Source: Acidimicrobiales bacterium (lineage in GTDB: Bacteria > Actinomycetota > Acidimicrobiia > Acidimicrobiales > Bog-793). Taken from it: a stretch of DNA of 64,000 bases. This document shows, in pieces, positions 11,778-40,017 of this stretch. The position numbers were made by a program, and so were the translations under genes. The DNA lies in contig JBEKBX010000017.1 of assembly GCA_050015175.1 (NCBI GenBank), forward strand, positions 195 to 64,194. Reading direction: 5' to 3'. How positions within the stretch are numbered: the stretch's first letter is position 1; each line of letters opens with the position of its first letter. Below the pieces are notes generated by a model. That model searched no databases. It was not told the DNA's origin and saw only the letters and a list, made by a program, of their open reading frames with translations.

Positions 11778-11860
11778 GCCGCCTCCTGCTCGGATCGATA
11801 GGGTAATAACACGCTTGTTATCGACACGATCAGAGCACGGCTTAACCAGCTGGGTGGTGG

Positions 11861-14080: not shown

Positions 14081-14081
14081 G

Positions 14082-15259: not shown

Positions 15260-15358
15260 CGCTGCCGTACTCGGTTCGCCGAGGCCCTCCGGAACTTTTC
15301 CGAATGCGTTCTACCGCAAGCATGCAATCAGCAAATGGGCAGACAAGGAAGGGGAACG

Positions 15359-16690: not shown

Positions 16691-16769
16691 CACCAGTCAG
16701 AAGTGGGTCCCGGCCGGGCCGTCGACGAGGGGCGCGGCCGGGACCTCGAACTTGGGAGGAAGGAGCAGC

Positions 16770-18545: not shown

Positions 18546-18676
18546 TTATGGACCGCCCCGCAGGTCAGGCCGTGAGAGTCCCAGATGAGAACCGGGCGCC
18601 CACTGCTGGCAACCCTGATCAGACGGTTCCCCCGGACCCACGAGACGGCAGAACGAAGAGGCGGAAAGGTGCTCCC

Positions 18677-23227: not shown

Positions 23228-23851
23228 TCAGCCCGTAACAGACACGCCCGCAGCCGTGTCAGCAACGGACGTCGCGTCCACCGTCCCGTTCTTCTCCTTG
23301 GTGCCCTGCACGATCACGGTGTCTCCCGGTTGCATCGCTGACGCCGTGCTCTTGGCCTCACGGGTGTAGGTCGTGGATGTCCCGAGAAGCACCTTGACCA
23401 GGCCCCCGCTTGCAGTCGTGACATAGAGCGTGTTGCCCTCGATGGTCGTCACGATGCCGGCGGCCGCGCCCGTGCTCGAGAAGCCTGAGAAACCGCCCGA
23501 ACTGATGCCGGACGACCCCCTGGAACTGAACAGCCTCGCGAAGTTCGACGCAGCGCTTCCGGTGTTGGTCGTCCCGTGGGCGCGCTGCAAGGCAGCTCCG
23601 CCCCAGAGCCCGCCCGCACCGATGAGAAGGGCCACCAATACAGCCGTCGGGTACTTGAGCCGAAGACCCGCACGAGGGCTTCGTATCGGCCACTCGTCGT
23701 CGTCCGCTATATCGGTGTCGTCTCCTCCAAGTTGTCCCGCTGGTCGCGGCGAACCGGTGAGCTCGGAAGGGGCCATGTCGATCCCGACCGGTTGCGTGAT
23801 GGCACCGCTGATCGGAGGAAGCTCCTCTGTGGTGTTCGGGTCGTCTGGCAT
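23228..23851 (-). CDS. Single-TM membrane protein with a Gly-rich linker and DUF5666-like OB domain
   Basis: TM AVLVALLIGAGGLWGGAAL; GIVTTIEGNTLYVTT...MQPGDTVIVQG. GGGGAG RBS; last gene of the export operon. Confidence 0.7.
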   Translation of the reverse strand: MPDDPNTTEELPPISGAITQPVGIDMAPSELTGSPRPAGQLGGDDTDIADDDEWPIRSPRAGLRLKYPTAVLVALLIGAGGLWGGAALQRAHGTTNTGSAASNFARLFSSRGSSGISSGGFSGFSSTGAAAGIVTTIEGNTLYVTTASGGLVKVLLGTSTTYTREAKSTASAMQPGDTVIVQGTKEKNGTVDATSVADTAAGVSVTG

Positions 23852-23867
23852 GGATGCTCCCCTGTCT

Positions 23868-25091: not shown

Positions 25092-25969
25092 CTCACTCCT
25101 CCGCCTAGGTTGCCTGACGCCGGCGCAGCGCCGGCGGGCGCCTCACGCTGCTCCATTCGCGTCTCCGAATGCACCGGGACGATGCGGCTGTCCTCGTAGA
25201 TCTGCCCGTCGCGCAGCCGGACGACCCGACGCGTGAAAGAGGCGATGTCCTGTTCATGGGTGATGATCACGACGGTCCGGCCCTCGGCGTTCAGTCGACT
25301 GAAAATGGCCATGATCTCGTGGCTCGAGGCCGTGTCGAGATTCCCGGTCGGCTCGTCGGCAAGGATCAGGGCAGGGGCCGTCACCAGAGCTCGGGCGATG
25401 GCGACGCGCTGCTGCTGGCCACCGGACATCTCGCTCGGGAGGTGATGGCTGCGGTCCTCGAGGCCGACCTGGCGCAGCGCTGCCATGGCCCGTGCGTGCC
25501 TTTCTTTCGGCTTCACGCCTCCGTAAGCGAGCGCGAGCTCCACGTTCGCCAAAGCGGTAGTGCGCGGGATCAGGTTGTAGTTCTGGAACACGAACCCGAT
25601 CTTGCGATTGCGGATCCGCGAGAGATCCGACTCCTCGAGTTGGCGTACGTCCACTCCCTCGAGCCAATAGTGCCCCCTCGTCGGCACGTCAAGGCATCCG
25701 ATGATATTCATCATCGTCGACTTCCCAGAGCCGGAGGCTCCCATTATGGCGACGAAGTCGCCTGCCTCGACGCTCAGCGAGACCCGGCGGAGCGCGTGAA
25801 CTTCGACCTCCCCCGTCTCGTAGGTCTTCGATACCGAGCGCAGGACGACGACCGGTCGTCTCCCGCCAACGGGGACCAAGGCCGTCGGAGCCGCCGCGCC
25901 TCGGGATGGCAGGGCGCGAAGGCCGTCGGGTGACCCGCCTCGGCGGCGGAAGAGCTGTTGACTGCTCAT
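25088..25969 (-). CDS. MacB-family ABC ATP-binding protein
   Basis: GASGSGKST, MSGGQQQRVAIARAL, ILADEPTGNLD. Confidence 0.95.
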   Translation of the reverse strand: MSSQQLFRRRGGSPDGLRALPSRGAAAPTALVPVGGRRPVVVLRSVSKTYETGEVEVHALRRVSLSVEAGDFVAIMGASGSGKSTMMNIIGCLDVPTRGHYWLEGVDVRQLEESDLSRIRNRKIGFVFQNYNLIPRTTALANVELALAYGGVKPKERHARAMAALRQVGLEDRSHHLPSEMSGGQQQRVAIARALVTAPALILADEPTGNLDTASSHEIMAIFSRLNAEGRTVVIITHEQDIASFTRRVVRLRDGQIYEDSRIVPVHSETRMEQREAPAGAAPASGNLGGGVS

Positions 25970-28074
25970 CCGAAGCTGCCGCCGCCTACGAAGACACCGC
26001 CGCCGCCGCCGCCGATGCGGGTCGGGCTTGTCGATCCTGTCGTGCCGGACGAGGGCGAGATCGTCGCTGTCGGCTCCACGAGTTTCTCGCCTGCGGTGAC
26101 GCCGCTCAGGATCTGCGTCGTCGAGTTACCGACCAGACCGACGGTGACGGGGGTGGTGACATCCTTGCCGTTCTTCAACACCGTGACAGTCGAGGTGAGG
26201 CCGGCCGTCGTCACTGCGGCGCTCGGGACCTCGAGCACATTCGTTGCCGTGTCGACGACGACGCTGACGTCCGCCGTCATTCCGTCCAAGATCGTGGCCG
26301 GAGGGTCCTTGAGCGCGATCGTCTCGTCATAGGTGACGACGTTGCTGCTGACGACCGATGTCGGCGATATCGCAGTGACGACGGCAGCGAGCTCGGTGGA
26401 AGGCAGGGCGGCCAAGGTCACGGTCGCCGGTTGACCGACGGCGATCTTGGTGGCGTCGGCCTCGGCGAAGCCTGCGACGACCTCGAGGTCCTTGAGGTTG
26501 TCAATGGTGACGAAACCGCTCGACGACGATGAGCTCGACGACGATGAGGCCGCGGACGACGAGGCCGCGGACGAAGAGCTGCCTCCGCTCACCGTCTCGC
26601 CGACCGTGCCGTTGACCGCAGTCACCGTGCCGGAGATGGAGGCGGTGAGGACGGTTCCCGCGAGCGCATTCTCGTCAGAAGTGACGGCCTGCTGGTCCTG
26701 GGTGACCGCCGCCTCATCCTGAGAGATGGTCGCCGTGTCGATTGCCTGACTTGCCTTGGTGGCTGCCAGGCTGGCCTGCTGCAGCTGAATCGTCTGCTTC
26801 TCGTTCTGCACGGCCTGCTCGTCGCTGGCAATTGTCTCCCGATCCGTCACACACGACCTGGTGGCGGTGATCAGGTACTCAGGCGAGCCGTAGGAAGTCC
26901 CCTTACTGTTGGAGGCCACCAGGCGGAAGACGTACGAGGTTTCCGCCTTGAGCCCGCGCACCAGAGCCGAGACGGTAACAGTCGTGGAACCGGCGTCGAC
27001 CGTCGTCGGTACGGTCTGCGACCCGTATACCGCGGTGGTTCCGTACTGGAAGAAATAGGTCGTCTCGGCGTCATTGGGATCCACCGATCCCTCGAGCGTG
27101 GCCGTCGTTGTCGTGACCGATTCCGCGGATGAGGTGACGACCGTGGGAGCCGTCACCTGGTCGCTTCCCGAGTCAGAAATGCTGACGGCGTGGCTGGAGC
27201 TGGAGGGGAATGTGGTGGAGGTGGAGCTGGTGTTCGTTGTTGTCGTCGGCGTCGTGGTCGTGGTTGTCGTCGGCGTCGTGGTCGTGGTTGTCGTCGGCGC
27301 CTCGGTGGTGGTCGTGGTCGACGCCGGCTTCGTGGTCGTGGTTGTCGTCGGCGTCGTGGTCGTGGTCGTGGAGCTGGTTCCGGTCGAGCCCGTGGAGCCG
27401 GTGGAGCTGGTTCCGGTCGAGCCCGTGGAGCCGGTGGAGCTGGAACTGCTGCCTGACGAGGACGACGAAGAAGAGGCCGCCGGGCAACCGAGCCTCTGGT
27501 CCGTGGCGAGCTGAGCCTTTGCGGTTGCCAGTGTCGACTGGTCCGAAATGAGCTGCAGGCTGTCGGAGCTCAACTGGGCTTGCGCAGATGCGAGCTGCGA
27601 CTTGTCCTGCGCGAGCTGCGACGCCGAGCCGCCCTGGCGAGCTTCCTGCAAGGCTGCTTCAGCGCTCTGGAGACTGGCGACGGCAATCACGAGGTTCGAT
27701 CGCGCCGTAGTCGGGTCAAGCGTGGCGAGCACTTGTCCAGCCCGGACCTGGTCCCCGACAGCGACGTCGACGGCGGTGACTGTGCCGCTAGCGGTGAAAT
27801 TCTCGCTGGCGTCGGTGGCGGGGCTGATGTTGCCGGAGGCCGTGACACTTTCTTGGACGATGCCGCGCTGCACTGTCACGGTCCGAACGATGCCGGTCGA
27901 GGCTGAAGTGGTCCCGTAGATCGATCGCAGGCCAAATCCGGCTACGGCTGCGATGGCCAAAACAAGGACCGTGTAGAAGGCAATCTTGCGTCCTCGTCGC
28001 GCATGAGGCTGGCCAACAACGCTATCTACTGCCATATCAGAACGCGACTTGCGAAAAACAGACTTCACTGCCAA
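25966..28074 (-). CDS. Membrane-fusion (MacA-like) adaptor with a Ser/Thr-rich + fibronectin type III insertion
   Basis: N-terminal TM, lipoyl half-motif (ASGTVTAVDVAVGDQVRAGQVLATLD), coiled-coil hairpin, FN3-like insert (TTATLEGSVDPNDAETTYFFQYGTT...GLKAETSYVFRLVASNSKGTSYG), C-terminal MFP barrel (VGLVGNSTTQILSGVTAGE). Confidence 0.88.
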   Translation of the reverse strand: MAVKSVFRKSRSDMAVDSVVGQPHARRGRKIAFYTVLVLAIAAVAGFGLRSIYGTTSASTGIVRTVTVQRGIVQESVTASGNISPATDASENFTASGTVTAVDVAVGDQVRAGQVLATLDPTTARSNLVIAVASLQSAEAALQEARQGGSASQLAQDKSQLASAQAQLSSDSLQLISDQSTLATAKAQLATDQRLGCPAASSSSSSSGSSSSSTGSTGSTGTSSTGSTGSTGTSSTTTTTTPTTTTTTKPASTTTTTEAPTTTTTTTPTTTTTTTPTTTTNTSSTSTTFPSSSSHAVSISDSGSDQVTAPTVVTSSAESVTTTTATLEGSVDPNDAETTYFFQYGTTAVYGSQTVPTTVDAGSTTVTVSALVRGLKAETSYVFRLVASNSKGTSYGSPEYLITATRSCVTDRETIASDEQAVQNEKQTIQLQQASLAATKASQAIDTATISQDEAAVTQDQQAVTSDENALAGTVLTASISGTVTAVNGTVGETVSGGSSSSAASSSAASSSSSSSSSSGFVTIDNLKDLEVVAGFAEADATKIAVGQPATVTLAALPSTELAAVVTAISPTSVVSSNVVTYDETIALKDPPATILDGMTADVSVVVDTATNVLEVPSAAVTTAGLTSTVTVLKNGKDVTTPVTVGLVGNSTTQILSGVTAGEKLVEPTATISPSSGTTGSTSPTRIGGGGGGVFVGGGSFG
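27175..27480 (-). repeat. Low-complexity Thr/Ser/Pro-coding repeats (24-bp TTTTTTPT units; 33-bp STGSTGTSSTG units)
   Basis: Repeated gtcgtcggcgtcgtggtcgtggtt and gtggagctggttccggtcgagcccgtggagccg. Confidence 0.85.
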
Positions 28075-28133
28075 TCCTGTCCTTTACTCATCGGGAGAGG
28101 CCGGCTAGCTGGGCGGAGGCGGCACAAAGGTCG

Positions 28134-28949
28134 TCAGCTTGTCGTCGACGTCGAGGTTGTACTGGATGTCGGGATGGACTTCGGCAGGAGGCTCGCGCAG
28201 GCTGCGAGCGCCTTCTGAACCGACGCGCTCTTCGTGTTGGGCGTGGTCGACGTGGTTGAGTTGTCGGCGCCGGAACTGCTGGGCAACGTCACGCCGTGGA
28301 GCTTGAGGCAGTTGCGGTAAGCGGCGAAGGCCGCGCTCGAGAAGCCGCCCGCCCCGGCCCCGAATCCCTTCGGGCGCAGGCTAGCGCAGGCGGCGAGCGC
28401 CTTTTGGACCGACGCACTCTTCGTGTTGAGCGTGGTCGACGTGGTTGGACTGGCGCCGGAAGATCCGCTGGGCAACGTCACGCCGTGGAGCTTCAAGCAG
28501 TTGCGGTACGCGGCAGAGGCCGCGCTCGAGAAGCCGCCCGTCCTCGTGCCGAATCCCTTCGGGCGCAGGCTCGCGCACGCGGCGGACGCCTTTTGGAACG
28601 CGGGCGAGTTGAAGCTCCCGCCCGTCGGGAACCCGCCTGTCGGGAAGCTGCCGCCGGTCGGGAAGCTGCCGCCCGTCGCTCCAGCGCCAAACCCGCCGAA
28701 CTTCACGCCGTGCTTCTGCATGCACGCGGCGAATGCCACGGATGACGCCTTTGGACTGCTGCCGGCACTTGTCGCTGCGGTCGTCGTGGAGGTGGTCGAG
28801 GAGGTCGCGTTCGATGACCCGCCCCCGCAGGCGCTCAACGCGACGGAGCCGGCAAGCACGATCGCCAGCAGAGGAAACCAGACCCGCCGCAACGACCGGA
28901 CACGGAAGGCGGGCGATAACTGGCCATTACGGCGAATGGTTCTCCGCAT
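28134..28949 (-). CDS. Lipoprotein with Cys-paired helical modules (first gene of the export operon)
   Basis: Lipobox ALSA-C; repeated AYRNCLKLHGV...ALAACASL; AGGGAG RBS. Confidence 0.8.
   Translation of the reverse strand: MRRTIRRNGQLSPAFRVRSLRRVWFPLLAIVLAGSVALSACGGGSSNATSSTTSTTTAATSAGSSPKASSVAFAACMQKHGVKFGGFGAGATGGSFPTGGSFPTGGFPTGGSFNSPAFQKASAACASLRPKGFGTRTGGFSSAASAAYRNCLKLHGVTLPSGSSGASPTTSTTLNTKSASVQKALAACASLRPKGFGAGAGGFSSAAFAAYRNCLKLHGVTLPSSSGADNSTTSTTPNTKSASVQKALAACASLLPKSIPTSSTTSTSTTS
28195..28572 (-). repeat. 189-bp (63-aa) internal tandem duplication in the lipoprotein
   Basis: gcgagcgcctt at 28204 and 28393; near-identical peptide modules. Confidence 0.9.
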
Positions 28950-30155: not shown

Positions 30156-30197
30156 AAAAAGAAAGGAACCCCGGTCCCTTGTGAGGACCGGGGTTCC
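30156..30197 (-). terminator. Intrinsic terminator of the surface-protein gene
   Basis: 13-bp stem GGAACCCCGGTCC (30165-30177)/GGACCGGGGTTCC (30185-30197), 7-nt loop, followed on the minus strand by TTTCTTTTT; 35 bp after the stop. Confidence 0.9.
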
Positions 30198-30231
30198 CAT
30201 CACACCTTGCTAGAAGGCGTTAGTCCCTTGG

Positions 30232-32949
30232 CTAGCTGATTGGAGACGGCGAACCCGCAATGGTTTGCGGGTCTGCTGCGAACACGTCCGCGCTTGCCGA
30301 GTTCACCGCGTACACCGCGTTGGCGGTGGTCTCTGCAGCTCCTTGGTCGAACTCGATGCTGGCACTGCCCTGTGGTGCGTTGAACGGCCCAAGCAGGGTC
30401 AGCACGTCACCCGAGGTTGTGCAGTCACCGGACGTTGGCGCACCACCGGAGAATCCAGCTGTGTACTCGTAGATGAAGTCGCTCACATCAGCACCAGTTG
30501 ACGGGCAGAACACGGGTTCGTTGTAGGTGATCGCGATTGACACACCCGTCGTCACGACCGCCGACACCATCGACGGAACGCCCGTCAGATCAGCGTAAGG
30601 AAGTGTCTGCGTCGCCGCGTACTCCGGGAATCCAACAGCCGTGCTCACCGATACGCCACCGCCGTCCGTCGTCGGCTCTGTGTACACGAGCGTGTCCGTG
30701 GACACCGGGGTGACCAGAGTCACTGCTGTGGTACCGGTCGTCCCACCAGCGAGGAAGAGCGACAGCGTCAGCACGTCGCCAGCAACCCCGCAGTGGGTTG
30801 GGTAAGCAGGCGTGCCGTCGTTGCTGTACACCCAGGCCGCTTGAATGCCAGCAGCCGTGAGCGGGCAGATGGGGGCCTCGTTGTAGGTAACGGCGATGGT
30901 CCCTACCCCGGAGGCACCAGGCGTCACGATCGCCGTCGTCATGGCTGGCGTCTCAAACGTCGTCAATGTCTGCGTTGGCGCAAACACTGAAGTACTACCG
31001 GTGGCGTAAGCCGCGTTCCCAAACGGACTCGTTGCAGCCGTGGCTACCGGTGTCGTCGGTGCCGTGTACAAGATCTCGGCACCGCTCCCTGGGTCCTGGA
31101 AGGTCGTATTCGGAATCAGCCACAGCACGTCACTGCCCTGTTGTTCGCAGTTCGCGATCGCGCCACCGAGGATTCCAGCAGCCGAGTAGTACGTGAAGTC
31201 GCTGAACGCAGTACCGTCCGGACCGGCCTGGCAGGACACGTCCTCGTTGTAGGTGATCGCGAGTTCGCCGCCAGCGAGCACTTGCGCAGACTTCATGGTG
31301 AGACCCACTGTCGAGGCCACCGAGAGTGCCTGCGGGGTTAGCGCAGCCGTCGCGGAGCTGTTTTGCACGTTGTCCCCAGCGGCGCCAACAGCGATGTACT
31401 CGATGGTGCCAACACCAACTGGCAAAAGGAAGCTCGTCACCGGGAGCAGGGTCAGTACATCACCTGAACACGAACCAGAGGCGACTAGGCCGCCAGAGGC
31501 CGCACCGCTGTAGTAGTACGTGAAGTCGGCAGCATCCAACGCTGCGCAGTTCACGGCCTGGTTGTAGGTGATCGCGATTGATGTGTCGGTCACGACCGCC
31601 GAGGCCATGACCGGCCCAGAAGTGACGTAGGTCGCGAAGTACCCGAAGACGTCGACCACGAGGTTGATCGTCCCGTAGCTGTTGTAGACCTCGACGCTGC
31701 CCGTGCCGTTCGTGTCCGCGATGGTGAAGTTCGGGACGATGCCGTTGGCAACCCAGTTGACGTCAGAAAAGTCTGGCTGGGTCGTCATGGCCGGTGCCGG
31801 GTAGACCGAGAGGTAACCGGAGCTGGCGCCTGCAACCACCGTGACGTTGGCATCCACCGAAGTGGCAGTCGTGGGGATCCCACTCGCCGTGGTGGCGAGG
31901 AGGAAGCTCTCCGAGGCGTTAGTCGTGATCGGTGTCTCGGTGCCGATCAAGCTGGCGGTGCGGGTGTCGGCCACGCGGACCGGTGCCGCGAGCGGCACGT
32001 AGTCCGAGCCGGTGCCACCAACGCCGGTGAAGTACCCGTCCACGTCGATGTCGACGTCAGCGCTGCCGGCGTGGTTGTAGACCTCGATCACTCCGCCGGT
32101 GCCGACTGCGACGATCGCGCGGTTGGCAACAACTTCTCCGGCCGAGGCGTTGAGGTTCGAGAACGTCGGCTCCGTCGTTACCGCCGGTGCCGGGTAGAGG
32201 CTAAGGAACGTCGCCGCACTGTCGTGGGCGACAGTCGCGTTGACCAGAACAGCGCTCGCGTTGGCGGGCACGGTGGTGGTACCCCCCGCCACTGTGACGG
32301 GCACGCTCGTGTTCGCCGCAACCGCTGCGCCGAGGGCGAGGGTGCCGAGATCACGCACGGGAGACATCGAGTTGAACAACCCGTAGCCGTTGGCCGCAGG
32401 AGTGCTCGTGAAGTAGCCCTCCACGTCGACTACGACGTCCGCGTCAGTGGCCGAGCTGTAGATCGACACCGCACCCGCAGCGCTCAGCGGAGCTGTCACG
32501 AGGTTCGCCACCGTCTGGCCGGCGTCGAAGTTGAGGTTGGAGACCGTCGGCTGGGTGGTCCCCGCCTCGAAGACGGTCAGGAACCCGGAAGACTTCGTGT
32601 TTGTGGCAGTCACGTTGAGCACCGCCGCCAACGATCCAGCCGGTACGGGCGTAGTGCCCACCCCGGTGACCTGCACGGTCAGCGTGGGGGCGGCAGTGGT
32701 GAGAGTCGAACCTGCGTTCGGCAGGCCGGAGCCAGTCCGCGTGTCAGTGATGCGGAAAGGCGTCACTGGGACGTAGGTGCCCGGGTCGGCCGCCGTCGCA
32801 TGTGAGTGAGTTGCGGCAGAGGCCGAAGTGGCTAGTGCAAGTGGTCCAAGGAGCAGACCGGTCGCGGCAATCAAGGCCGTCCCGAGCCGGATCGGCATAT
32901 GCCTACCCGTCTTCTCCTCCGTCGGGCCTTCACGGGATGACCTAAGCAT
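30232..32949 (-). CDS. Large secreted surface (S-layer/adhesin-like) protein
   Basis: Signal peptide ending in ATSASA-A. Three beta-sandwich units (YVPVTPFRITDTR...SNLNF...ADVVVDVEGYF), then four SwmB-like units (M.SA.V....IAITYNE.V.C). Start placed after GGAGG RBS. Confidence 0.82.
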   Translation of the reverse strand: MLRSSREGPTEEKTGRHMPIRLGTALIAATGLLLGPLALATSASAATHSHATAADPGTYVPVTPFRITDTRTGSGLPNAGSTLTTAAPTLTVQVTGVGTTPVPAGSLAAVLNVTATNTKSSGFLTVFEAGTTQPTVSNLNFDAGQTVANLVTAPLSAAGAVSIYSSATDADVVVDVEGYFTSTPAANGYGLFNSMSPVRDLGTLALGAAVAANTSVPVTVAGGTTTVPANASAVLVNATVAHDSAATFLSLYPAPAVTTEPTFSNLNASAGEVVANRAIVAVGTGGVIEVYNHAGSADVDIDVDGYFTGVGGTGSDYVPLAAPVRVADTRTASLIGTETPITTNASESFLLATTASGIPTTATSVDANVTVVAGASSGYLSVYPAPAMTTQPDFSDVNWVANGIVPNFTIADTNGTGSVEVYNSYGTINLVVDVFGYFATYVTSGPVMASAVVTDTSIAITYNQAVNCAALDAADFTYYYSGAASGGLVASGSCSGDVLTLLPVTSFLLPVGVGTIEYIAVGAAGDNVQNSSATAALTPQALSVASTVGLTMKSAQVLAGGELAITYNEDVSCQAGPDGTAFSDFTYYSAAGILGGAIANCEQQGSDVLWLIPNTTFQDPGSGAEILYTAPTTPVATAATSPFGNAAYATGSTSVFAPTQTLTTFETPAMTTAIVTPGASGVGTIAVTYNEAPICPLTAAGIQAAWVYSNDGTPAYPTHCGVAGDVLTLSLFLAGGTTGTTAVTLVTPVSTDTLVYTEPTTDGGGVSVSTAVGFPEYAATQTLPYADLTGVPSMVSAVVTTGVSIAITYNEPVFCPSTGADVSDFIYEYTAGFSGGAPTSGDCTTSGDVLTLLGPFNAPQGSASIEFDQGAAETTANAVYAVNSASADVFAADPQTIAGSPSPIS

Positions 32950-33559
32950 ACGTTTCTTCCTCCATCTCCAGGGTTCCTGCGTATTTCTGTACCGTCGTGT
33001 GGCTCTTTTCAAACCGCCAGCCAACGGCACAAACCTATCACAGCCCAGCCGATACCACTCGATACATGGAACAAGTCGAAACTAGTTGCTCACGTGACAG
33101 GAGTCAAGCATACTGACATATCCTTCTTGACAACGTCCTGTTCCGGAGCATCAAGCAGGACTTGGCAGTCCACGTCGTTGCAACTCTAGTATGCACCACT
33201 GCACAAACAAACAATGGTCAGGGTTCAAAGTTCCGGACCTCTTCGGTCGGATCTTACGCATCCGGAGCACAAGCTCGCACGCGACCGCTTCCTGAACGCG
33301 ACACGAACCGCCTCTGCTCATGGCCCGTGCGTGCCAGATCAGCTTGGACGCGCCGCGGGCGCGCCAGCCGTGATCGGGGCGCGCGTCTTCTCAGGAGCGG
33401 ACGTCGTCTTGCGATTTCGGGGAGGTATCCCGGCTAAACCTCATCAGGTCAAAGCACCGGCTATTCGCCAAACCTGGGGCAACACCGAGTGCGCGCCGGC
33501 AGACCCGGTCGCGCGTTAATGACCTCAGGCGACATTCATGATCGGGGTGTCGGACGGCC

Positions 33560-35530
33560 TCAGGAACCTCCACGTCGCCGGCCGCCTCGGATCAGCGTCA
33601 CGAGCGCACGCAACGGGGCAGTCAGCCGCCAGAACTCAGAGGCGAGAAGTTCGTCACGCGCGTGCTCTGCCTGGCGTGCGCGATGTTCGAGCCGGGCGAC
33701 CTGCCTGGCCAGCTCCTCGGCCTGCGCACTCTCGGCATGCAGGCGGTCGACCTCGAGACGCAGGGTCTCCTGTGTCACCGCGAGCGCGCCCCTTACCTCG
33801 TCAAACGCACGGTCGAGCTCCGCGCGGTGCGCCTCGAGCGCCTTTGTAGGGCCCTCGTTGCCCGCGAGACAGGCCAGCTGAGAGGCACTGCCTGACGGAA
33901 GGAGCAGCGGCCTGGCGTCAAGGCGCGCGAGCATTCGCAGGTATTCCCCCTCCCGCACGTCGGGAGGGACAGCCTCGGCCGTGGTACCGACGTCATCCCA
34001 GCACAGTTGGATCGAGCTCACGTGACCGGTGTCCTCAACGCCGACGACCGAAGCTGCACGTACCAGGAAATCCCACTCCGCACAGATCGCCAGCTCCTCG
34101 TCGAACCGGAAGTGCAGCTCGGTCACGAGCGACCGGGGCACAGCGAAGCTCGAGATCGGCGTCGCGTCCACCGCCAGGCTGGAGATCGCGTCGAAACGCT
34201 CGGCGAACTCCGCGAGCGGTCTAGTGAGCGTCACCGGGGCCGCTCCCATCGCCTCCTCCTCCGGCATGCGCCGCCGGACGTGGCGGGCAAAGCAGACCGA
34301 GCGGACGATCTTGCCCGGTGCCCGAGCTGCTGCTTCGGCAAAGCGCTCCGCCCAGTCCGCGGTCACGAGGTCGCCCTCGTCCAAGAACGCGACATAACGT
34401 CCGCGGGCGAGCCCGAGCCCCGCGTTCAAGGCCGTAGCCCCGCCCTCGCCCTGGACCCGCTCGACGCGGACCCGGGAGGCGAAACCCTCCTCGAAGCTCC
34501 TCGCGACCGCCGCCGAGAACTCGACGGCTCCGGGGACGTCGCCGTGCACGAGGACGACGACCTCGAGGTCCTCAAAGCTCTGGGCCGCGAGGCATGTCAG
34601 CGCCTCGGTGAGGATCGACGGGCGCGTCCCGTCGGTTCGGGTCAACACAGAAAGGAACGGCGTATCGGTCGCCGTCACCTCGGCCGGGTGAACGTCCCTC
34701 ACCGTCGGCGGTGAGTGCCTGTCGGACGCCGGCGTTCGCTCGACCAGGCGGTAGGCGCGCACGAATTGATTGACCGCCATGTTGGGGTCGACTGCGGACC
34801 GCAGCGCCCGGAGGTGATCGTGGACCGGTCCCCCCTCGACCAGGAAGGGGTGGTCGAGGGGGAACCACTGATCCGAGTGTTCCATGATGACGTCGTCGCG
34901 GCCGCACTCCTGCCAGCCGAACCGGCCGAGCTCGGCACCGACCCGCCGCTCTGTGAACATCTGCAGGTGCGTCCGGTCCAAGAGGCCGCTCGGTGTGACG
35001 TCCCACCGGCCGCCGACGAGCTTGGCGCCGAGGTCGAAGTGCGCCACGTTCGGGATGCTGGTCACCAGGACCGGGGCATCGTTCCCATCTGCCGCCAGCG
35101 ACCACGACCACTCGGCGATCTCGCGGAGCACCGCGGACGGGTCGGGCAGGTGCTCGATGATGTCGAGCATCATCACGGCACCGACCCGGCGGCCCGCGAG
35201 CAGACCCGTCAGCACGCTGACAAGGTCCTCGCCGGTCGCGAGGTCGACCACGTGGCCTTCGAGTCCCCGCGACACGACGTCGGCCACGGCGTCGACGTCC
35301 CGGTCCCCGCCTACGTACTCCCATCCCGCGTCACGCAGCACCTCCCCGACCGCCGCGTAGCCGCAGCCGAGATCGAGGACGACGCCGCGCCGCGCGTGGC
35401 GTTCGACGAGACGCACCGCGTGACCGTACGGGCCCTCCCACGAGAACGAGAAGCGATAGGTCGGGGGGCGCCCCGGCCCGTTGCCCTCGCGGCCCGCGGC
35501 CTCACCGGGCTCAGAAGCGGTGCTCGGCAT
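33560..35530 (-). CDS. SAM methyltransferase - GT2 - short coiled-coil fusion (glycan modification/termination)
   Basis: VLDLGCGYA, DIIEHLPDP, GLLDRTHLQMF; GT-A region FLSVLTRT...YVAFLDEGD; ~70-aa coiled coil ending ASEFWRLTAPLR. Confidence 0.85.
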   Translation of the reverse strand: MPSTASEPGEAAGREGNGPGRPPTYRFSFSWEGPYGHAVRLVERHARRGVVLDLGCGYAAVGEVLRDAGWEYVGGDRDVDAVADVVSRGLEGHVVDLATGEDLVSVLTGLLAGRRVGAVMMLDIIEHLPDPSAVLREIAEWSWSLAADGNDAPVLVTSIPNVAHFDLGAKLVGGRWDVTPSGLLDRTHLQMFTERRVGAELGRFGWQECGRDDVIMEHSDQWFPLDHPFLVEGGPVHDHLRALRSAVDPNMAVNQFVRAYRLVERTPASDRHSPPTVRDVHPAEVTATDTPFLSVLTRTDGTRPSILTEALTCLAAQSFEDLEVVVLVHGDVPGAVEFSAAVARSFEEGFASRVRVERVQGEGGATALNAGLGLARGRYVAFLDEGDLVTADWAERFAEAAARAPGKIVRSVCFARHVRRRMPEEEAMGAAPVTLTRPLAEFAERFDAISSLAVDATPISSFAVPRSLVTELHFRFDEELAICAEWDFLVRAASVVGVEDTGHVSSIQLCWDDVGTTAEAVPPDVREGEYLRMLARLDARPLLLPSGSASQLACLAGNEGPTKALEAHRAELDRAFDEVRGALAVTQETLRLEVDRLHAESAQAEELARQVARLEHRARQAEHARDELLASEFWRLTAPLRALVTLIRGGRRRGGS

Positions 35531-36473
35531 ACTCCCCCTCGCGGAAGAAGGCAACCGAGGCGACCGCCTCGGAAGAAAGGTCGAGCGCCTCGCGGTAGGT
35601 GGCGGGAAGCGCCCCTTCGGCCCGCCTGCGCAGGAACTCCGCAGCCGCTTGACGGTGCAGCTCACTGCCGTGGGCGCCGGCCCAGCCCAGCCACTGGTCG
35701 ACGACATCAGGTCGCTCCGCCCGGTGGCCGAGAAGCAGGCGGGCCAGCACGGCCTGGTACTCCTCCTCCAGGGTTGGTGCGGGGAAGCCTGTGACCATCA
35801 ACTCCTTGTCGTGGAAGACGGTTGCCTCGGGCACGTGGCGCACGCGCAGGCCGCGTAGGCGGACCCGCCAGGACAGGTCCACGTCGTCACCGTGGAGAAA
35901 AAAAGCCGGCTCGAACCCACCGAGAGCGTCGAAGAGCGCCGCCCTCATTGCAATTAGACAGCCACTCGCCCAGGGCGTGTCACCTGTCACCGGGTCGAAC
36001 GCCTTCGGGTGCTCGAGCGGGATCTGGCGCGCCTCGGCGATGCCGACCGTCTCGTCGTCGAGCACACCGACGAGCGTTGACAGGCAGTTCGGCGACAGGT
36101 ACGTGTCAGGGTTGAGCAGCACGAGGATCTCGCCGTCGCCACCGGTGCGAAGCGATCCGGCCGCCCGCCTGGCGAGAAGGTTCTGGCCTGCGCCATGCCC
36201 CGTGTTCACCATGAAGGCGACGTACTCGAGCGCTATGCCGGCTCTGTCGAGGATCTCGCCGGCCGCGGTCAGCACCTCCTCGCCGACCAAGGCATCCGGG
36301 CCCTCGGCGCCCCCGCAGTCGCCGATCGCCACGGCCACGGTCGGGCCGACCGTTCCACCGTCCAAGTGGCGGACTGCCGCCGCCACTGAACGCAGCATCC
36401 GCAGCAGGCCGTGCGCTTGCCCCCCGTAGCGGACCGTCTGGACCCGCAGCGCCGTCGCCATCGCAGATCTCAA
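35511..36473 (-). CDS. Glycosyltransferase family 2 (rhamnosyl/galactofuranosyl-transferase-like)
   Basis: NTGHGAGQN, LLNPDT, PLEHPKAFDPVTGDTPWASG, FFLHGDDVDLSWR. Confidence 0.88.
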   Translation of the reverse strand: MRSAMATALRVQTVRYGGQAHGLLRMLRSVAAAVRHLDGGTVGPTVAVAIGDCGGAEGPDALVGEEVLTAAGEILDRAGIALEYVAFMVNTGHGAGQNLLARRAAGSLRTGGDGEILVLLNPDTYLSPNCLSTLVGVLDDETVGIAEARQIPLEHPKAFDPVTGDTPWASGCLIAMRAALFDALGGFEPAFFLHGDDVDLSWRVRLRGLRVRHVPEATVFHDKELMVTGFPAPTLEEEYQAVLARLLLGHRAERPDVVDQWLGWAGAHGSELHRQAAAEFLRRRAEGALPATYREALDLSSEAVASVAFFREGEYAEHRF

Positions 36474-39103
36474 TCAGGGCGCTGGCGGTATGCGTCGACG
36501 AGCCGCAACGCGACGCGAAGCGGAACCGTCACCTTCCAGCTCTTTGTGGCCTCGAATTCCGAGCGCACACGAGCTTCGGCTTCGCCCACGGCCTCATCCA
36601 GTCGTGCGAGCGCGACATCGCGCTCGGCCGCAGCGGCCCGGGCGCGAGCCTCAGCTTCGCGACACTCGTTGAGCCTCGCCTCGGCCAGGGCAGCGACCTG
36701 CGCAGCGTACTGCTCGACCTCGGCGGCACGATGCTCCGCCGCGACCACACGTTGCTCGGCAAAGATCACCCGCTCCTGGGCGAGAGCGACGCCCTGCTCG
36801 GCAGCGGCGACGCGTTGCTCGGCAAAATCAACGCGCTCTTGGACAAGGGCCACGCTCTGCTCGGCGACGGCCGCGCTCTGCTCGGCGACGGCCACGTGCT
36901 GCTCGGCGGCCGCGACACGCTGCTCGGCAAATTCCACGCGCTCTTCGGCAGCCGCGACGCGTTGTTCGGCAAAAACGACGCGCTCTTCGGCAAGGGCCGC
37001 GCTCTGCTGGGCAACGACCGCGCTCTGCTCGGCGACAGCCGCGTGCTCCTCGGCGACGGCCGCGCGTTGCTCGGCGACGTCCACGCCCTGCACCGCCAGG
37101 CCGGCGCCCTGCACCGCCAGAGCCGCGCCCTCCTCGGCGAGCTTCACGCGCTGCTCGGCAACGGCCACGTGTTCCTCGACTACCTTCGCCTGGCGCTCGG
37201 CGACCTTCACGCGCTGCTCGGCAACGGCCACGTGTTCCTCGGCCACCTTCGCCTGACGCTCGGCGACCTTCACCTGCCGTTCGGCGACGGCCGCGCGCTG
37301 TTCGGCGACGGCAAGCAGCTTCTCTGCCGCCTCCACGCGCGCCAGCAGCTGACCTTTCTCCACCCACAGGTCCGCCACCTCTGTGGTTGAGGCCCCCAGG
37401 GAGTGCTTCGCCGAGTCCAGGTCCTTCTGGAGCTGCGCGACGGTGTTCGCCGTCATCTCCATCTGCGTGAGCCTGCTCACCGTCCCGGGTGGAACGAGGA
37501 GAGGCCTGGCGTCGAACCGGCCCCGTATCGACCACGTCGTGATGTCCCACGTCTCCTCGGGGTGCTCGATGTGGGACGCGTACCCCCGCTTCCATCGCCG
37601 GTAGAGAGAGGTCACCTCCGGCGTGCTGACCACTCCGCACAACAGCGAGGCGTTCAGCAACATGTCCCAGTCCTCGAGCACCGGCAGCCTGTCGTCGAAG
37701 GACATCCCCAGGTCCGCGAAGCAGCTCCGCGGGATGGCCACCGAGCAGTTGGGGGTTCTGTTGCCGACCAGGTGAGCGACGAGGTCGAACTCGAGCGGGT
37801 AGGGAGTCGTGGTCGGCCCGATCTGGCAGTAGCCGGTGCCGCATTCCCACGGCTCCTCGTCTATCGAGTGCGTGGCGCAGCCGGCGCGGGCTACTGCGCC
37901 GGGATGGAGCTTGACGAGCTTGGCGAACTCCTCCACCCAATGGCAGAAGGCGAGGTCGTCGTCGTCGAGGAAGGCCACGTAGCGGCCCCGCGCTTCGGTC
38001 ACCCCGACCTGAAGCGGGCGCGCCCTGCCCCCGCCCTCGACGCGGATCGCCCGCGTCCTCTCGACGAGCCAGCGGGGAAGGCGTGCAACGACCTCGGCTA
38101 CCGCCGCGTATTCGCCGTCGGTCGTGTCGTGACAGCAGACGATCGCTTCGATGTCGCGGTTGGTCTGGGCGGCGAGCGATGTGAGGTTGTCCTCCAGGGC
38201 CATGAGGCGCCGACCCTGGGTGCGCACGATCACGCTCAGGAAAGGCGCGGGGGCGGGCTCGTCAGAAGCCGATGAGCCGGGGAGTCGGGTTGTGCCCGCC
38301 CGGGGCCGGGCTGTCGGCAGGTACGCCCGCACGAACTGGTCGACGAGCGCGCCGGGAGCACTCTGCTCCCTCACCTCCAACAAGAAGTCGTGCAGCGGAG
38401 TGCCGGCTGAAAGCGTCGTCAGCGTATCGGGAAAGTGCTGGTCGCTGCGCGCGACGACGAGGTCGTCAGCCTTGATCTCCTTCCATCCGGCCTGGGAGAG
38501 CTCTGCCTCCAGCCTGCCGGACGCGAACAACGAGAGGTGGCCCTCGTCGAGGAGACCGTCCGGGGTGACGTCCCAACGCCCGGATACCAGCTTGGCGGCT
38601 ACGTCGAAGTGCGAGACGTTGGCTACGCTGACGACAAGCGGAGCGCCCTTGTGGCGTCTCGCCATGGCGGCCAGCGCGGTGAGCAACTCACCCGGGCGGG
38701 CCGTACGCCCGATCAGGTCGAGCGCCGTGATGGCCGCAAGTTGGCGACCGCCGAGAGCCTCCTCGAGGCGCTTGACGAGCAAGGTGCTCCCGCCGAGGTC
38801 CACCAACGCGGTGGCGAGTCCTTGCTTGGAAAGCTCTTCGAGGCGATCCGGCTCGGTGTCCACCCCCAGGTACTCGAGGCCGAGGTCCGCGCACGAACCA
38901 GCGGCGGTGCCGAAGCCGCACCCGAGATCGAGGAGCACTCCCTCGTGCAGGGCGTGGCCGGACAGGAGCCGGACAACGTGGCTGTGAACGGTCCTCGCCT
39001 CGTTGTCGAGCTTTACGAGATCGGTCACGGACATGCCTCCTCGAAGATCGCGCGGCGACCCCCCGGGCCCATCGAAGGCACTCGGTTCGTGTTCATGGCT
39101 CAC
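36470..39103 (-). CDS. SAM methyltransferase - GT2 - very long coiled-coil fusion
   Basis: LLDLGCGFG, GLLDEGHLSLF; FLSVIVRTQGRR...YVAFLDDDD, VLEDWD; ~300-aa coiled coil ending ATKSWKVTVPLR. Confidence 0.88.
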   Translation of the reverse strand: MSHEHEPSAFDGPGGSPRDLRGGMSVTDLVKLDNEARTVHSHVVRLLSGHALHEGVLLDLGCGFGTAAGSCADLGLEYLGVDTEPDRLEELSKQGLATALVDLGGSTLLVKRLEEALGGRQLAAITALDLIGRTARPGELLTALAAMARRHKGAPLVVSVANVSHFDVAAKLVSGRWDVTPDGLLDEGHLSLFASGRLEAELSQAGWKEIKADDLVVARSDQHFPDTLTTLSAGTPLHDFLLEVREQSAPGALVDQFVRAYLPTARPRAGTTRLPGSSASDEPAPAPFLSVIVRTQGRRLMALEDNLTSLAAQTNRDIEAIVCCHDTTDGEYAAVAEVVARLPRWLVERTRAIRVEGGGRARPLQVGVTEARGRYVAFLDDDDLAFCHWVEEFAKLVKLHPGAVARAGCATHSIDEEPWECGTGYCQIGPTTTPYPLEFDLVAHLVGNRTPNCSVAIPRSCFADLGMSFDDRLPVLEDWDMLLNASLLCGVVSTPEVTSLYRRWKRGYASHIEHPEETWDITTWSIRGRFDARPLLVPPGTVSRLTQMEMTANTVAQLQKDLDSAKHSLGASTTEVADLWVEKGQLLARVEAAEKLLAVAEQRAAVAERQVKVAERQAKVAEEHVAVAEQRVKVAERQAKVVEEHVAVAEQRVKLAEEGAALAVQGAGLAVQGVDVAEQRAAVAEEHAAVAEQSAVVAQQSAALAEERVVFAEQRVAAAEERVEFAEQRVAAAEQHVAVAEQSAAVAEQSVALVQERVDFAEQRVAAAEQGVALAQERVIFAEQRVVAAEHRAAEVEQYAAQVAALAEARLNECREAEARARAAAAERDVALARLDEAVGEAEARVRSEFEATKSWKVTVPLRVALRLVDAYRQRPD
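36710..37310 (-). repeat. 21-bp (heptad) coding repeat, consensus VAEQRVA
   Basis: Roughly 28 consecutive heptads such as VAEQRAA/VAERQVK/FAEQRVA/AAEQHVA. Confidence 0.9.
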
Positions 39104-40017
39104 GCGAAACGCTGAACTGCATAAGAACCATCGAGAAAGAATGCCACCCTCTCCGCGCCGGGAACCGGCGAGGGCAGGCGGCCCGACGTTTGGCGCTCCC
39201 GGAAGTCCGCGGCCGCTTGTCGCTGCGGCTTGGTCCCGTACTCGCCGTACCAGGCGAGCCTGTCCTCCAGCCGACCTCGACCGCCGTACTTCTGGCTGAG
39301 CAGCAGATCCGCTTCTGCGGCCCAGCGCTCCTCCTTGGGCGAGACGAGCAACGCACCCGATTCGTCGACGCGCTGGTCATTGATGACCCGCGCAGAGGGC
39401 CTGTACACGCATTGGTGACCGGACAGCCGTACCCGCCAGGAGTAATCGACGTCGTCGCCGTAGAGGAAGAACGACTCGGCGTCCAGGCCACCTAGCTCGG
39501 AGAAGAGCTCGGCACGTGTCAGCGCGCAGGCCAACGAGCACCACCCGGTCTCCCCCGTCACGCGGTCGTACTCCTTCGGGTTCTCGAATGGGAGTTGATG
39601 AGCCTCGACTAGCCCGACCTCCGGACCCGCGAGGAGGCCCTTGACAAGCTCAGCCACGGCAAGCGGCCCGACGACGACATCGTCGTTGCAGAGCAGAAGG
39701 AGCTCGGACTCGTTCTTACGGAAGAGGCGGTTGTGCCCTTCGGCGTGGCCCAGATTCTGACCGAACCGCTCGTAGGTGAAGTCGCTGCCACCCTCTTTGA
39801 GGACAGCGCCGAGCGCATCCTGGGTCCTCTTGCTGAGGCCGGCCTTCTCGGAGCAGTCGCCGAGGACAACGACGGCGTCCCCGATGAGCTTCGCAGAGCG
39901 CGCGTTCTCCAGCGACCGGGCGAGAGCCTCTGCGTACCTGAGCAGCGTCGCGGGTGTAAACGCATGCGCTACCGTCTGCACCCGCAGACTGGACCGGGAC
40001 GCCTCGGCTTTCGGCAC
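39100..40017 (-). CDS. Glycosyltransferase family 2, paralog of 35511..36473
   Basis: NLGHAEGHN, LLCNDD, PFENPKEYDRVTGETGWCS, FFLYGDDVDYSWR. Confidence 0.88.
   Translation of the reverse strand: MPKAEASRSSLRVQTVAHAFTPATLLRYAEALARSLENARSAKLIGDAVVVLGDCSEKAGLSKRTQDALGAVLKEGGSDFTYERFGQNLGHAEGHNRLFRKNESELLLLCNDDVVVGPLAVAELVKGLLAGPEVGLVEAHQLPFENPKEYDRVTGETGWCSLACALTRAELFSELGGLDAESFFLYGDDVDYSWRVRLSGHQCVYRPSARVINDQRVDESGALLVSPKEERWAAEADLLLSQKYGGRGRLEDRLAWYGEYGTKPQRQAAADFRERQTSGRLPSPVPGAERVAFFLDGSYAVQRFA

What the first reader, a model, noticed from the sequence alone, without database searches (positions are those of the whole stretch)
33560..40017. Duplicated [GT2 + methyltransferase-GT2-coiled-coil] module with ~300-aa versus ~70-aa coiled coils: a two-ruler glycan chain-length system?
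Seen: an overlapping four-gene operon GT2a, MT-GT2-CC(long), GT2b, MT-GT2-CC(short). The pairs are clear paralogs. Both fusions end in an amphipathic (S/F)W(K/R)(V/L)T.PLR helix. The long one has ~28 VAEQRVA-type heptads (21-bp DNA repeats). The short one has DEGD where the long one has DDDD. Established: in E. coli O9a/O8, WbdD (methyltransferase +/- kinase, coiled coil, C-terminal amphipathic membrane helix) caps the chain, and coiled-coil length sets chain length. Geobacillus WsaE is a methyltransferase-rhamnosyltransferase fusion for S-layer glycan. Inference: two terminators hold their catalytic heads at roughly 45 nm versus 10 nm from the membrane (at ~0.15 nm per residue). That would give bimodal methyl-capped glycans, tunable by heptad gain or loss. 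No Wzm/Wzt exporter is in the window.
Basis: partly seen in the sequence, partly recalled or inferred. Interest (0 to 1): 0.8.

Follow-up and report, generated by a model that had tools for sequence, protein, structure and literature searches.

The report
Tandem coiled-coil glycan terminator modules
An uncultured soil actinobacterium carries two old, diverged copies of a membrane-anchored sugar-chain enzyme pair, one on a short fixed stalk and one on a very long stalk that changes by whole heptads between strains; each copy is losing a different catalytic domain, which suggests they share work on one surface glycan.

Summary
Four co-oriented genes on the minus strand encode GT2a, MT-GT2-coil (long), GT2b and MT-GT2-coil (short). 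The paralog pairs are 35-37% identical. There are 29 in-phase heptads on a 21-bp DNA repeat, both fusions end in SW(K/R)xTxPLR, and the window has no Wzm/Wzt.

It is a new variant of a known kind. The plan matches WbdD-type terminator/rulers: catalytic head, coiled coil, C-terminal membrane helix. The [small GT2 + fusion] pair is a conserved unit across Actinomycetota, with Wzm/Wzt within 10 kb in 15 of 78 loci.

The two copies are not a recent duplication (AU p = 7e-5).

- **Stalk lengths:** the short stalk is fixed at 83-86 aa across the genus. The long one runs from 231 to 350 aa in heptad steps, with 41-, 42- and 43-heptad alleles in one population.
- **Reciprocal decay:** SHORT keeps its methyltransferase but loses 10-17 of 54 conserved GT2 sites. 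LONG keeps its GT2, while its methyltransferase erodes in some sister species.

This favours division of labour on one glycan over two independent rulers. The island co-occurs with the adjacent secreted repeat protein. Function is entirely inferred.

The parts
39100..40017 (-). GT2a: small COG1216-type (WbbL/GlfT/MftF-like) GT2, partner of LONG
   Evidence: Pfam and NCBIfam hits. A homolog lies immediately upstream of the fusion gene in about 70 of 78 loci. It keeps all 25 invariant columns of the small-GT2 family.
36470..39034 (-). LONG: MT-GT2-coiled coil-C-terminal helix, 854 aa (the ORF extends to 39103)
   Evidence: AF2 pLDDT 80.8.
38315..38998 (-). LONG methyltransferase domain (aa 13-240)
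   Evidence: Methyltransf_23. It resembles PDB 3cc8. It deviates at 5 of 47 family near-invariant sites; sister species deviate at 8-10.
37490..38245 (-). LONG GT-A/GT2 domain (aa 264-515), with DDDD
   Evidence: Only 4 of 54 conserved sites deviate.
36548..37483 (-). LONG stalk (aa 518-829): helices 518-633 and 668-829, joined by in-phase Gly-containing heptads
   Evidence: The tail is 315 aa, which is 45 heptads.
36745..37292 (-). 21-bp tandem DNA repeat encoding the AEQR heptads, with 63- and 147-bp higher-order units
36485..36544 (-). LONG C-terminal SWKVTVPLR helix with a basic tail (putative membrane anchor)
35511..36461 (-). GT2b: small COG1216-type GT2, partner of SHORT (the ORF extends to 36473)
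33560..35530 (-). SHORT: MT-GT2-coiled coil-C-terminal helix, 656 aa (the ORF extends to 35707)
   Evidence: AF2 pLDDT 89, pTM 0.78.
34745..35443 (-). SHORT methyltransferase domain (aa 30-262), well conserved
   Evidence: 4 of 47 sites deviate, the same four in all orthologs. Mean pairwise identity is 84%.
33896..34663 (-). SHORT GT2 domain (aa 290-545), decaying: DEGD, GEGGATAL in place of GGGRARPL, AEWD in place of EDWD
   Evidence: 14 of 54 conserved sites deviate. The changes are lineage-specific across orthologs. It diverges 1.9 times faster than the MT in 45 of 45 pairs.
33641..33856 (-). SHORT stalk, a single predicted helix (aa 559-630)
   Evidence: The length is fixed at 83-86 aa from GT2 end to Trp, while sequence identity is only 58%.
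33569..33637 (-). SHORT C-terminal FWRLTAPLR helix with an Arg-rich tail
   Evidence: 82% identity among orthologs.
30232..33030 (-). Associated gene: secreted Ala/Thr-rich repeat protein (932-aa ORF; signal peptide from Met45), always downstream of SHORT
   Evidence: Synteny in 10 genus genomes. Its presence tracks that of the module. No Pfam or PDB match. A strong terminator-like hairpin lies at 30164-30198.

Best explanation
The locus holds two co-resident members of a widespread, uncharacterised actinobacterial two-gene glycan-assembly module. Each module is a small COG1216-type GT2 followed by a fusion of SAM methyltransferase, GT-A GT2, alpha-helical stalk and a basic Trp-containing C-terminal helix.

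The fusion follows the plan of WbdD-type terminator/rulers of ABC-transporter-dependent glycan synthesis. The C-terminal helix sits on the cytoplasmic face of the membrane. The stalk holds the catalytic head at a set distance, so only lipid-linked chains that have grown long enough are modified or capped.

The two modules are ancient paralogs that came together in this Acidimicrobiaceae genus, and they have since divided the labour. SHORT keeps an intact methyltransferase on a fixed stalk of about 10 nm, while its GT2 decays. LONG keeps an intact GT2 on a stalk of about 35-50 nm that changes by whole heptads, while its methyltransferase erodes in some species. They therefore most likely act on the same glycan, with the long variable stalk as the length-setting element and SHORT supplying the methyl cap.

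The glycan probably serves the adjacent secreted repeat proteins, as their attached glycan or as their wall ligand, and is exported by a Wzm/Wzt encoded elsewhere.

Shown here: architecture, conservation patterns, length polymorphism, synteny. Inferred: every activity, membrane binding, oligomeric state, ruler function, shared substrate.
For: Architecture:
- Domain content and high-confidence models: head, then a 72-residue helix (SHORT) or 116 + 162-residue helices (LONG), then a terminal helix.
- The heptads are canonical: V at a, A at d, E at e, R at g, period 7.0.

Family context:
- The W and R of the C-terminal motif are at least 90% conserved.
- A small GT2 lies immediately upstream in about 70 of 78 loci. 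Wzm plus Wzt, mostly with the C-terminal domain, lie within 10 kb in 15 of 78 and in L004.

Stalks:
- SHORT is fixed in length (83-86 aa) but only 58% identical in sequence, the signature of a spacer (PMC5082667).
- LONG tails of 231-350 aa are almost all 0 mod 7. A sister sub-clade uses 11-residue units instead, so length rather than sequence is kept.
- 41-, 42- and 43-heptad alleles occur among proteins whose heads are at least 98.4% identical.
- Unequal, independently varying arms and Gly at one heptad position argue against a hairpin.

Reciprocal decay:
- The GT2/MT divergence ratio is 1.00 in the family and 1.01 in single-module orthologs of SHORT.
- It is 1.92 in SHORT (45 of 45 pairs) and 0.72 in LONG.
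- The site losses are listed.

Link to the secreted protein: conserved synteny and co-occurrence in 14 of 14 versus 1 of 7 genomes.

The known paradigm is described in PMC11231755 and PMC5082667.
Against: - No experiment exists for any family member.
- WbdD is not detectable as a relative by profile search or among the top 50 fold matches. Only generic GT-A enzymes and methyltransferase 3cc8 appear.
- Known rulers separate the terminator from the polymerase. Here a GT2 sits beside the MT at the distal end (PMC11231755).
- There is no exporter, primer transferase or sugar-nucleotide gene in the window.
- The only Wzt-CBM has its own MT and GT4 genes. It is present in genus genomes that lack the module.
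- The amphipathic moment of the C-terminal helix is not above shuffles: 319 and 568 of 2000 reach it.
- Four SHORT orthologs carry Pro, Gly or a 3-residue gap at mid-stalk, so that stalk may be a hairpin.
- LONG's stalk has a low-confidence stretch, and the model coordinates could not be inspected.
- In this genome LONG's MT still has motif I and the post-I Asp.
- Each fusion keeps its own intact partner GT2, which also fits two separate products.
- Genomes in the co-occurrence test are not phylogenetically independent.
Confidence: 0.45

Rival explanations
1. Two complete, independent terminators cap the same glycan at about 10 nm and about 45 nm, giving a bimodal methyl-capped length distribution.
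For: Two stalk lengths in one operon. Heptad polymorphism. Both MT domains in this genome keep motif I and the post-I Asp. A Wzt-CBM is present in the genome.
Against: A cap added at 10 nm would pre-empt chains from reaching 45 nm unless stoichiometry is limiting. SHORT's GT2 has lost 10-17 of 54 conserved sites. LONG's MT has lost SAM-binding residues in G008, G002 and G018, so the heads are not equivalent. The copies are not recent duplicates.
Confidence: 0.15
2. The two modules are autonomous and each makes and caps its own glycan with different linkages or sugars. They are co-located only because the site is a glycan-gene hot spot.
For: The modules are 35-37% identical and belong to different subfamilies. 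Each fusion keeps its own intact, co-evolving small GT2. Four relatives have a further MT-coil plus GT2-GT4 pair inserted at the same site. Single modules stand alone in other genomes.
Against: This does not explain why SHORT's GT2 lost constraint only in the genus that also has LONG, while single-module orthologs keep it. It also does not explain why the decay is reciprocal.
Confidence: 0.2
3. A WsaE/WsaF-like polymerase-terminator pair. The head GT2 plus the small GT2 polymerise a repeat and the MT caps it. The helices serve only for oligomerisation and membrane tethering and do not measure length.
For: WsaE is an N-terminal MT fused to polymerising GT domains and works with a separate GT, next to an S-layer gene (PMC2943079). 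The head GT2 lies next to the MT rather than across the coil. Most family members have short tails of 35-108 aa.
Against: A fixed-length, sequence-divergent SHORT stalk and a long stalk kept over changes of repeat type (7 versus 11 residues) point to selection on length. A polymerase held tens of nm from a lipid-linked primer is geometrically awkward.
Confidence: 0.15
4. The products are cytoplasmic polymethylated polysaccharides, as in mycobacterial MMP/MGLP, and are not exported.
For: MT plus GT activities without an exporter in the locus.
Against: A conserved C-terminal membrane-type helix. Enrichment of Wzm/Wzt-CBM next to homologs. Linkage to a secreted protein.
Confidence: 0.04

Closest known systems
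WbdD (E. coli O9a/O8; K. pneumoniae O3/O5) terminator and molecular ruler
   Same: An N-terminal SAM methyltransferase head, an extended coiled coil and a C-terminal membrane-associated helix. It acts on lipid-linked chains exported by Wzm/Wzt, and coil length sets chain length (PMC11231755, PMC5082667).
   Different: No detectable sequence or top-ranking fold relation. A GT2 replaces the kinase beside the MT. The partner is a small single GT2, not the dual-GT4 WbdA. The LONG stalk is about twice WbdD's roughly 20 nm and is naturally polymorphic. The host is a monoderm. There is no exporter in the locus.
K. pneumoniae O12 WbbB and the O7 ORF6 / O4 ORF7 coiled-coil assembly proteins
   Same: Multi-module proteins in which GT and terminator modules are arranged around a coiled coil, with further GTs supplied by separate proteins (PMC11231755).
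   Different: In those proteins the polymerising GTs lie at the membrane-proximal end, opposite the terminator. Here the only fused GT is distal, next to the MT.
WsaE/WsaF of Geobacillus stearothermophilus S-layer glycan synthesis
   Same: An N-terminal O-methyltransferase fused to GT domains, working with a separate GT. The methyl cap ends the chain. The genes lie beside the surface-protein gene and export is by Wzm/Wzt (PMC2943079).
   Different: WsaE is described as soluble, with two GT domains and no ruler. Its cluster carries wzm/wzt, rml genes and an oligosaccharyltransferase. No sequence comparison was run here.
E. coli O101/O162 methyltransferase with a C-terminal coiled coil
   Same: An MT-coil protein proposed as a ruler that complexes with GTs (PMC13168486).
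   Different: No fused GT2 and no tandem second module. It is proteobacterial.
Paired Wzz co-polymerases giving bimodal O-antigen in the Wzy-dependent pathway (own knowledge)
   Same: Two length-determining proteins in one cell.
   Different: An unrelated mechanism and protein family, acting in the periplasm. The two proteins here are not functionally equivalent.

Membership tests
WbdD-type coiled-coil terminator/ruler (functional class) | Terminating enzyme at the membrane-distal end of an extended coiled coil | tested here: met
   The MT domain is N-terminal. It is followed, after the GT2, by a 72-residue helix or by 116 + 162-residue helices. The heptad pattern is canonical. Oligomeric state is not known.
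WbdD-type coiled-coil terminator/ruler (functional class) | C-terminal membrane-associating amphipathic helix | tested here: inconclusive
   A predicted helix with a conserved Trp, Pro and Arg plus a basic tail. The hydrophobic moment of 0.7 over 11-14 residues is not better than shuffles over 18.
WbdD-type coiled-coil terminator/ruler (functional class) | Physical separation of the terminator from the polymerising GT modules | tested here: not met
   The fused GT2 lies directly beside the MT on the distal side of the stalk. Whether the small GT2 docks near the membrane could not be tested.
WbdD-type coiled-coil terminator/ruler (functional class) | Genetic association with Wzm/Wzt, with Wzt carrying a carbohydrate-binding domain | tested here: inconclusive
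   Not in this window. One Wzt_C gene lies on another contig in its own cluster and is universal in the genus. At family level, 15 of 78 loci plus L004 have it within 10 kb.
WbdD-type coiled-coil terminator/ruler (functional class) | Stalk length determines glycan length | not testable with these tools
   Indirect evidence only: the SHORT length is conserved despite sequence drift, and the LONG length is quantised.
WbdD protein family (homology) | Detectable sequence or fold similarity to WbdD | tested here: not met
   A profile search of PDB sequences returns 3cc8 and generic methyltransferases and GT2s, and no WbdD. WbdD is not in the Foldseek top 50 for either model.
GT2 / GT-A inverting glycosyltransferases | GT-A fold with DxD and the conserved acidic ED motif | tested here: met
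   LONG has DDDD and LEDWD, and 50 of 54 family sites are kept. For SHORT the fold is kept but the motifs are degraded: DEGD, AEWD and 14 of 54 sites lost.
Class I SAM-dependent methyltransferases | Motif I GxGxG and the post-I acidic residue | tested here: met
   Both window proteins keep DLGCG and the Asp after strand 2. LONG orthologs in G008, G002 and G018 lose the Asp and the third Gly.
WsaE-type MT-rhamnosyltransferase | Sequence homology to WsaE; two GT domains; rhamnose donor | not tested
   No WsaE sequence was compared. There is only one fused GT domain here. The resemblance rests on the literature (PMC2943079).

The most novel reading that the evidence does not exclude
A subfunctionalised two-stalk machine. 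A glycosyltransferase on a 35-50 nm heptad-variable stalk acts as the length gate and adds a terminal sugar only to chains that reach it. A separate methyltransferase on a fixed 10 nm stalk then caps that sugar for Wzt recognition. Natural 33- to 50-heptad alleles would form a ready-made allelic series that tunes surface-glycan length in soil Acidimicrobiaceae. It would be the first ruler system in a monoderm and the longest known.
Probability: 0.22. Interest if true: 0.8.

Novelty: new variant of a known kind. Interest (0 to 1): 0.6.

Why it matters
Coiled-coil rulers are established only in a few enterobacterial O-antigen systems. This locus points to a large, unstudied actinobacterial family built on the same plan, and it offers three things the model systems lack.

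- **A natural allelic series.** Stalk length varies in single-heptad steps within a population and 1.5-fold (231-350 aa) across species.
- **An internal control.** A fixed-length stalk sits in the same operon.
- **A division of labour.** The reciprocal domain decay suggests that length gating and capping can be split between two stalked proteins.

The link to abundant secreted repeat proteins also gives a lead into how uncultured soil Acidimicrobiaceae build their surface.

Tried and rejected
- **Read-level heptad counts.** Assembly collapse of repeats cannot be fully excluded for the short-read proteins.
- **Phyletic link to the exporter.** Wzt_C is in all 21 genus genomes, so the test is uninformative.
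- **Small GT2 against PDB.** The profile search gave no hit.
- **Secreted protein.** It has no Pfam or PDB match and no significant self-repeat by BLASTP.
- **Model geometry.** AF2 coordinates are not exposed, so hairpin versus extended was judged only from arm lengths and heptad phase.
- **Amphipathicity.** The test against shuffles was not significant.
- **Wzy_C ligase-type genes.** They exist elsewhere in the genome but are not linked to the locus.
- **'DEGD means a dead enzyme' on its own.** Rejected, because orthologs vary between DDDD, DEDD and DEGD. The case for decay rests on the whole-domain pattern instead.
- **'Recent tandem duplication'.** Rejected.
- **Literature.** The search found no paper on an actinobacterial MT-GT2-coil protein.

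Full report
**What is there**

The region 33560-40017 carries four co-oriented minus-strand genes. Pfam finds a class I methyltransferase domain followed by a GT2 domain in the two large proteins, and weak GT2 matches in the two small ones. NCBIfam relates the small ones to the MftF/COG1216 type of GT2.

LONG and SHORT are 37% identical over about 590 residues. GT2a and GT2b are 35% identical.

Ribosome-binding sites and public gene calls place the starts at three points:
- LONG starts at ATG 39034, giving 854 aa.
- GT2b starts at ATG 36461.
- SHORT starts at ATG 35530, giving 656 aa. This lies 20 nt inside GT2b, which suggests translational coupling.

A 21-bp tandem array with 63- and 147-bp higher-order units spans 36745-37292. 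It encodes 29 in-register heptads of the form V-x-(V/A)-A-E-Q-R, with V at a, A at d, E at e and R at g. The hydrophobicity period is exactly 7.0.

Both fusions end in SW(K/R)xTxPLR plus a basic tail. No other real gene in the 4.5-Mb genome has this ending. The contig has no ABC-2 or Wzt gene. The rest of the window holds unrelated functions, apart from a MacB-type exporter and a GH130/GT4 sugar cluster.

**Structure**

AlphaFold2 with family alignments gives confident models.
- **SHORT** (pLDDT 89, pTM 0.78) has an MT domain at 30-262 and a GT-A domain at 290-545. One unbroken helix spans 559-630, followed by a terminal helix at 638-654.
- **LONG** (pLDDT 81) has the same head, then helices 518-633 and 668-829 and a terminal helix. 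The two long helices are separated by a low-confidence stretch that is still in heptad phase.

The Gly residues in that stretch all fall at one heptad position. The 'arms' on either side differ by 32-102 residues and vary independently among orthologs. Some orthologs lack the Gly patch altogether. This argues for an extended coil rather than a hairpin.

At about 0.148 nm per residue (textbook value), SHORT's stalk is about 10-11 nm. LONG's is about 41-46 nm in this genome and roughly 30-50 nm across orthologs. WbdD's stalk is about 20 nm (PMC5082667).

Fold and profile searches return only generic GT-A enzymes (AvpGT/PglI, WrtF, TarS/TarP, RmlT, SpsA) and the uncharacterised methyltransferase 3cc8. 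WbdD does not appear. The resemblance to WbdD is one of plan, not of detectable homology.

**The family**

The database search found 130 relatives, and the species-genome scan found 250. They are mostly from Acidimicrobiia, Solirubrobacterales and Pseudonocardiales, including cultured Umezawaea, Labedaea and Actinosynnema. A few come from Proteobacteria and Myxococcales.

The window's organism is an uncultured soil or peat Acidimicrobiaceae.

In about 70 of 78 fetched loci a small GT2 ends at or just over the start of the fusion gene. The two-gene module is therefore the conserved unit.

Wzm plus Wzt lie within 10 kb in 15 of 78 loci, and also in L004 together with a Bac_transf primer enzyme. 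Most of these Wzt align across the C-terminal carbohydrate-binding domain. My rough expectation for a random 20-kb window is about 1%, which is an inference. This ties the family to ABC-transporter-dependent, cap-recognising export.

Outside the LONG clade, the tail between the GT2 domain and the Trp is 35-108 residues.

**Not a recent duplication**

On a tree of the heads, the SHORT and LONG clades are separated by many taxa and by well-supported branches. Forcing them together costs 111 log-likelihood units (AU p = 7e-5). The caveat is that the group was defined after seeing the tree.

Both paralogs are found, adjacent to each other, in 14 of 21 genomes of this genus. Outside the genus only two relatives match, each with a single copy. 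Single-module orthologs of SHORT occur in related genera (L067-L069, L073). LONG was therefore probably added beside an existing SHORT module, and its stalk then expanded.

**Stalk evolution**

SHORT's tail is 83-86 residues in every ortholog, although the stalk is only 58% identical in sequence. This is the spacer signature described in PMC5082667.

LONG's tail ranges from 164 to 350 residues.
- Among the closer orthologs the lengths are 231, 266, 273, 280, 287, 294, 301, 308, 315, 336, 343 and 350, almost all 0 mod 7.
- A sister sub-clade uses 11-residue repeats, with lengths differing by 11 or 33.
- Proteins whose heads are at least 98.4% identical carry 41, 42 or 43 heptads, through single-heptad indels at two different sites.

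Being long is conserved. Exact length and repeat type are not.

**Reciprocal domain decay (new)**

I defined 47 MT and 54 GT2 near-invariant sites from 50 family members that lie outside both clades. Deviations from the family consensus were as follows:

| Group | MT sites deviating (of 47) | GT2 sites deviating (of 54) |
|---|---|---|
| SHORT orthologs in this genus | 4 (the same four everywhere) | 10-17 |
| LONG orthologs in this genus | 4-10 | 2-5 |
| Single-module orthologs of SHORT | 2-3 | 5-8 |
| Family median | 1 | 2 |

The SHORT GT2 changes are lineage-specific and hit several motifs.
- GGGRARPL is altered; it is GEGGATAL in the window.
- The DDDD motif reads DEGD, DEDD or EEGD in different lineages.
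- The H..N pair is changed.
- EDWD reads AEWD, ADWD, TAWD or EAWD.

In LONG, G008, G002 and G018 lose the post-I Asp and the third Gly of motif I.

Divergence ratios point the same way:

| Group | GT2/MT divergence ratio |
|---|---|
| Whole family | 1.00 |
| Single-module SHORT orthologs | 1.01 |
| SHORT in this genus | 1.92 (45 of 45 pairs) |
| LONG in this genus | 0.72 |

Both small GT2s keep all family-invariant residues.

The simplest reading is subfunctionalisation after the two modules met. SHORT is kept for its methyltransferase and LONG for its glycosyltransferase, which implies a shared substrate.

**Context**

A 932-aa secreted Ala/Thr-rich protein with no Pfam or PDB match follows SHORT in every genus genome examined, often with extra paralogs.

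It is present in all 14 genomes that have the module. It is absent from 6 of the 7 that lack the module. My hypergeometric p is about 1.3e-4, not corrected for phylogeny.

The genome's single Wzt with a carbohydrate-binding domain lies on another contig. It sits with Wzm, a 341-aa methyltransferase, a GT4 and a divergent dual-GT4 protein. That WbdA/WbdD-like core cluster is present in all 21 genus genomes. It may or may not also export the product of this locus.

**Mechanism and limits**

The best-supported model is a membrane-tethered, stalked assembly system for a lipid-linked surface glycan. The long variable stalk sets which chains get the final sugar, and the short-stalk methyltransferase caps them.

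The main rivals are:
- two autonomous glycans;
- a WsaE/WsaF-like polymerase-terminator in which the coils are mere tethers (PMC2943079).

Points against the ruler reading:
- The GT2 sits beside the MT at the distal end, unlike all characterised systems (PMC11231755).
- Membrane binding is unproven.
- Four SHORT orthologs have helix breakers at mid-stalk.
- Nothing has been tested at the bench.

I treat that as a lead, not as evidence.

**Verdict**

This is a real feature and a new variant of a known kind. Interest is moderately high because of the natural length series and the reciprocal decay.

Noticed in passing
G000 contig C14:84000-103999 (L017 9081-16285): A separate WbdA/WbdD-like core cluster: Wzm, Wzt with Wzt_C, a 341-aa methyltransferase, a GT4 and a divergent 790-aa dual-GT4 protein. 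The Wzt_C gene is present in all 21 genus genomes.
   Followed up: partly
L053 4158-7361; L055 8650-11787: In four relatives (G006, G009, G010, G016) about 3.3 kb is inserted between LONG and GT2b on the opposite strand. In the two loci read (G009, G016) it encodes a 388-413-aa methyltransferase with an Ala/Glu-rich C-terminal coil (no SW motif) and a 652-aa GT2-GT4 two-domain protein. The site looks like a hot spot for stalked glycan enzymes.
   Followed up: partly
L053 7370-9877; L055 6256-8640: LONG orthologs of a sister sub-clade build the stalk from 11-residue (hendecad) repeats such as EADRRVAEITT instead of heptads. One also carries a run of 4-residue QVTA repeats next to the membrane motif.
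   Followed up: partly
window 30232-33030 (-): A secreted 932-aa Ala/Thr/Val/Gly-rich protein (23% Ser+Thr) with recurring ...DVVVDV.GYF... motifs and no Pfam or PDB match. It is multiplied to 2-7 copies in relatives and co-occurs with the module.
   Followed up: partly
L057 7109-9134 (G011): The SHORT ortholog is split into two overlapping reading frames. This is either a frameshift pseudogene or an assembly error.
   Followed up: no
window 33641-33856 and orthologs: The midpoint of the SHORT stalk carries Pro or Gly, or a 3-residue deletion, in G006, G009, G010 and G016. This hints that the stalk could fold as a hairpin in some species.
   Followed up: no
window 23228-28949 (-): A MacB-type ABC exporter operon whose HlyD-like adaptor (702 aa) contains very long Ser/Thr/Pro-rich inserts. 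It lies just downstream of the secreted protein gene and is also flagged by another reader of this scan.
   Followed up: no
window 8293-19492: A sugar-utilisation cluster with two GH130 mannoside phosphorylases, a GT4, a ROK kinase, a SIS protein, an ABC sugar importer and a DeoR regulator. A PMT_2 family GT-C gene lies at 57114-58811.
   Followed up: no
window 35531-35707 (-): The 59-codon 5' extension of the SHORT reading frame overlaps the end of GT2b. It is most likely not translated, as the ATG at 35530 has a good ribosome-binding site.
   Followed up: yes
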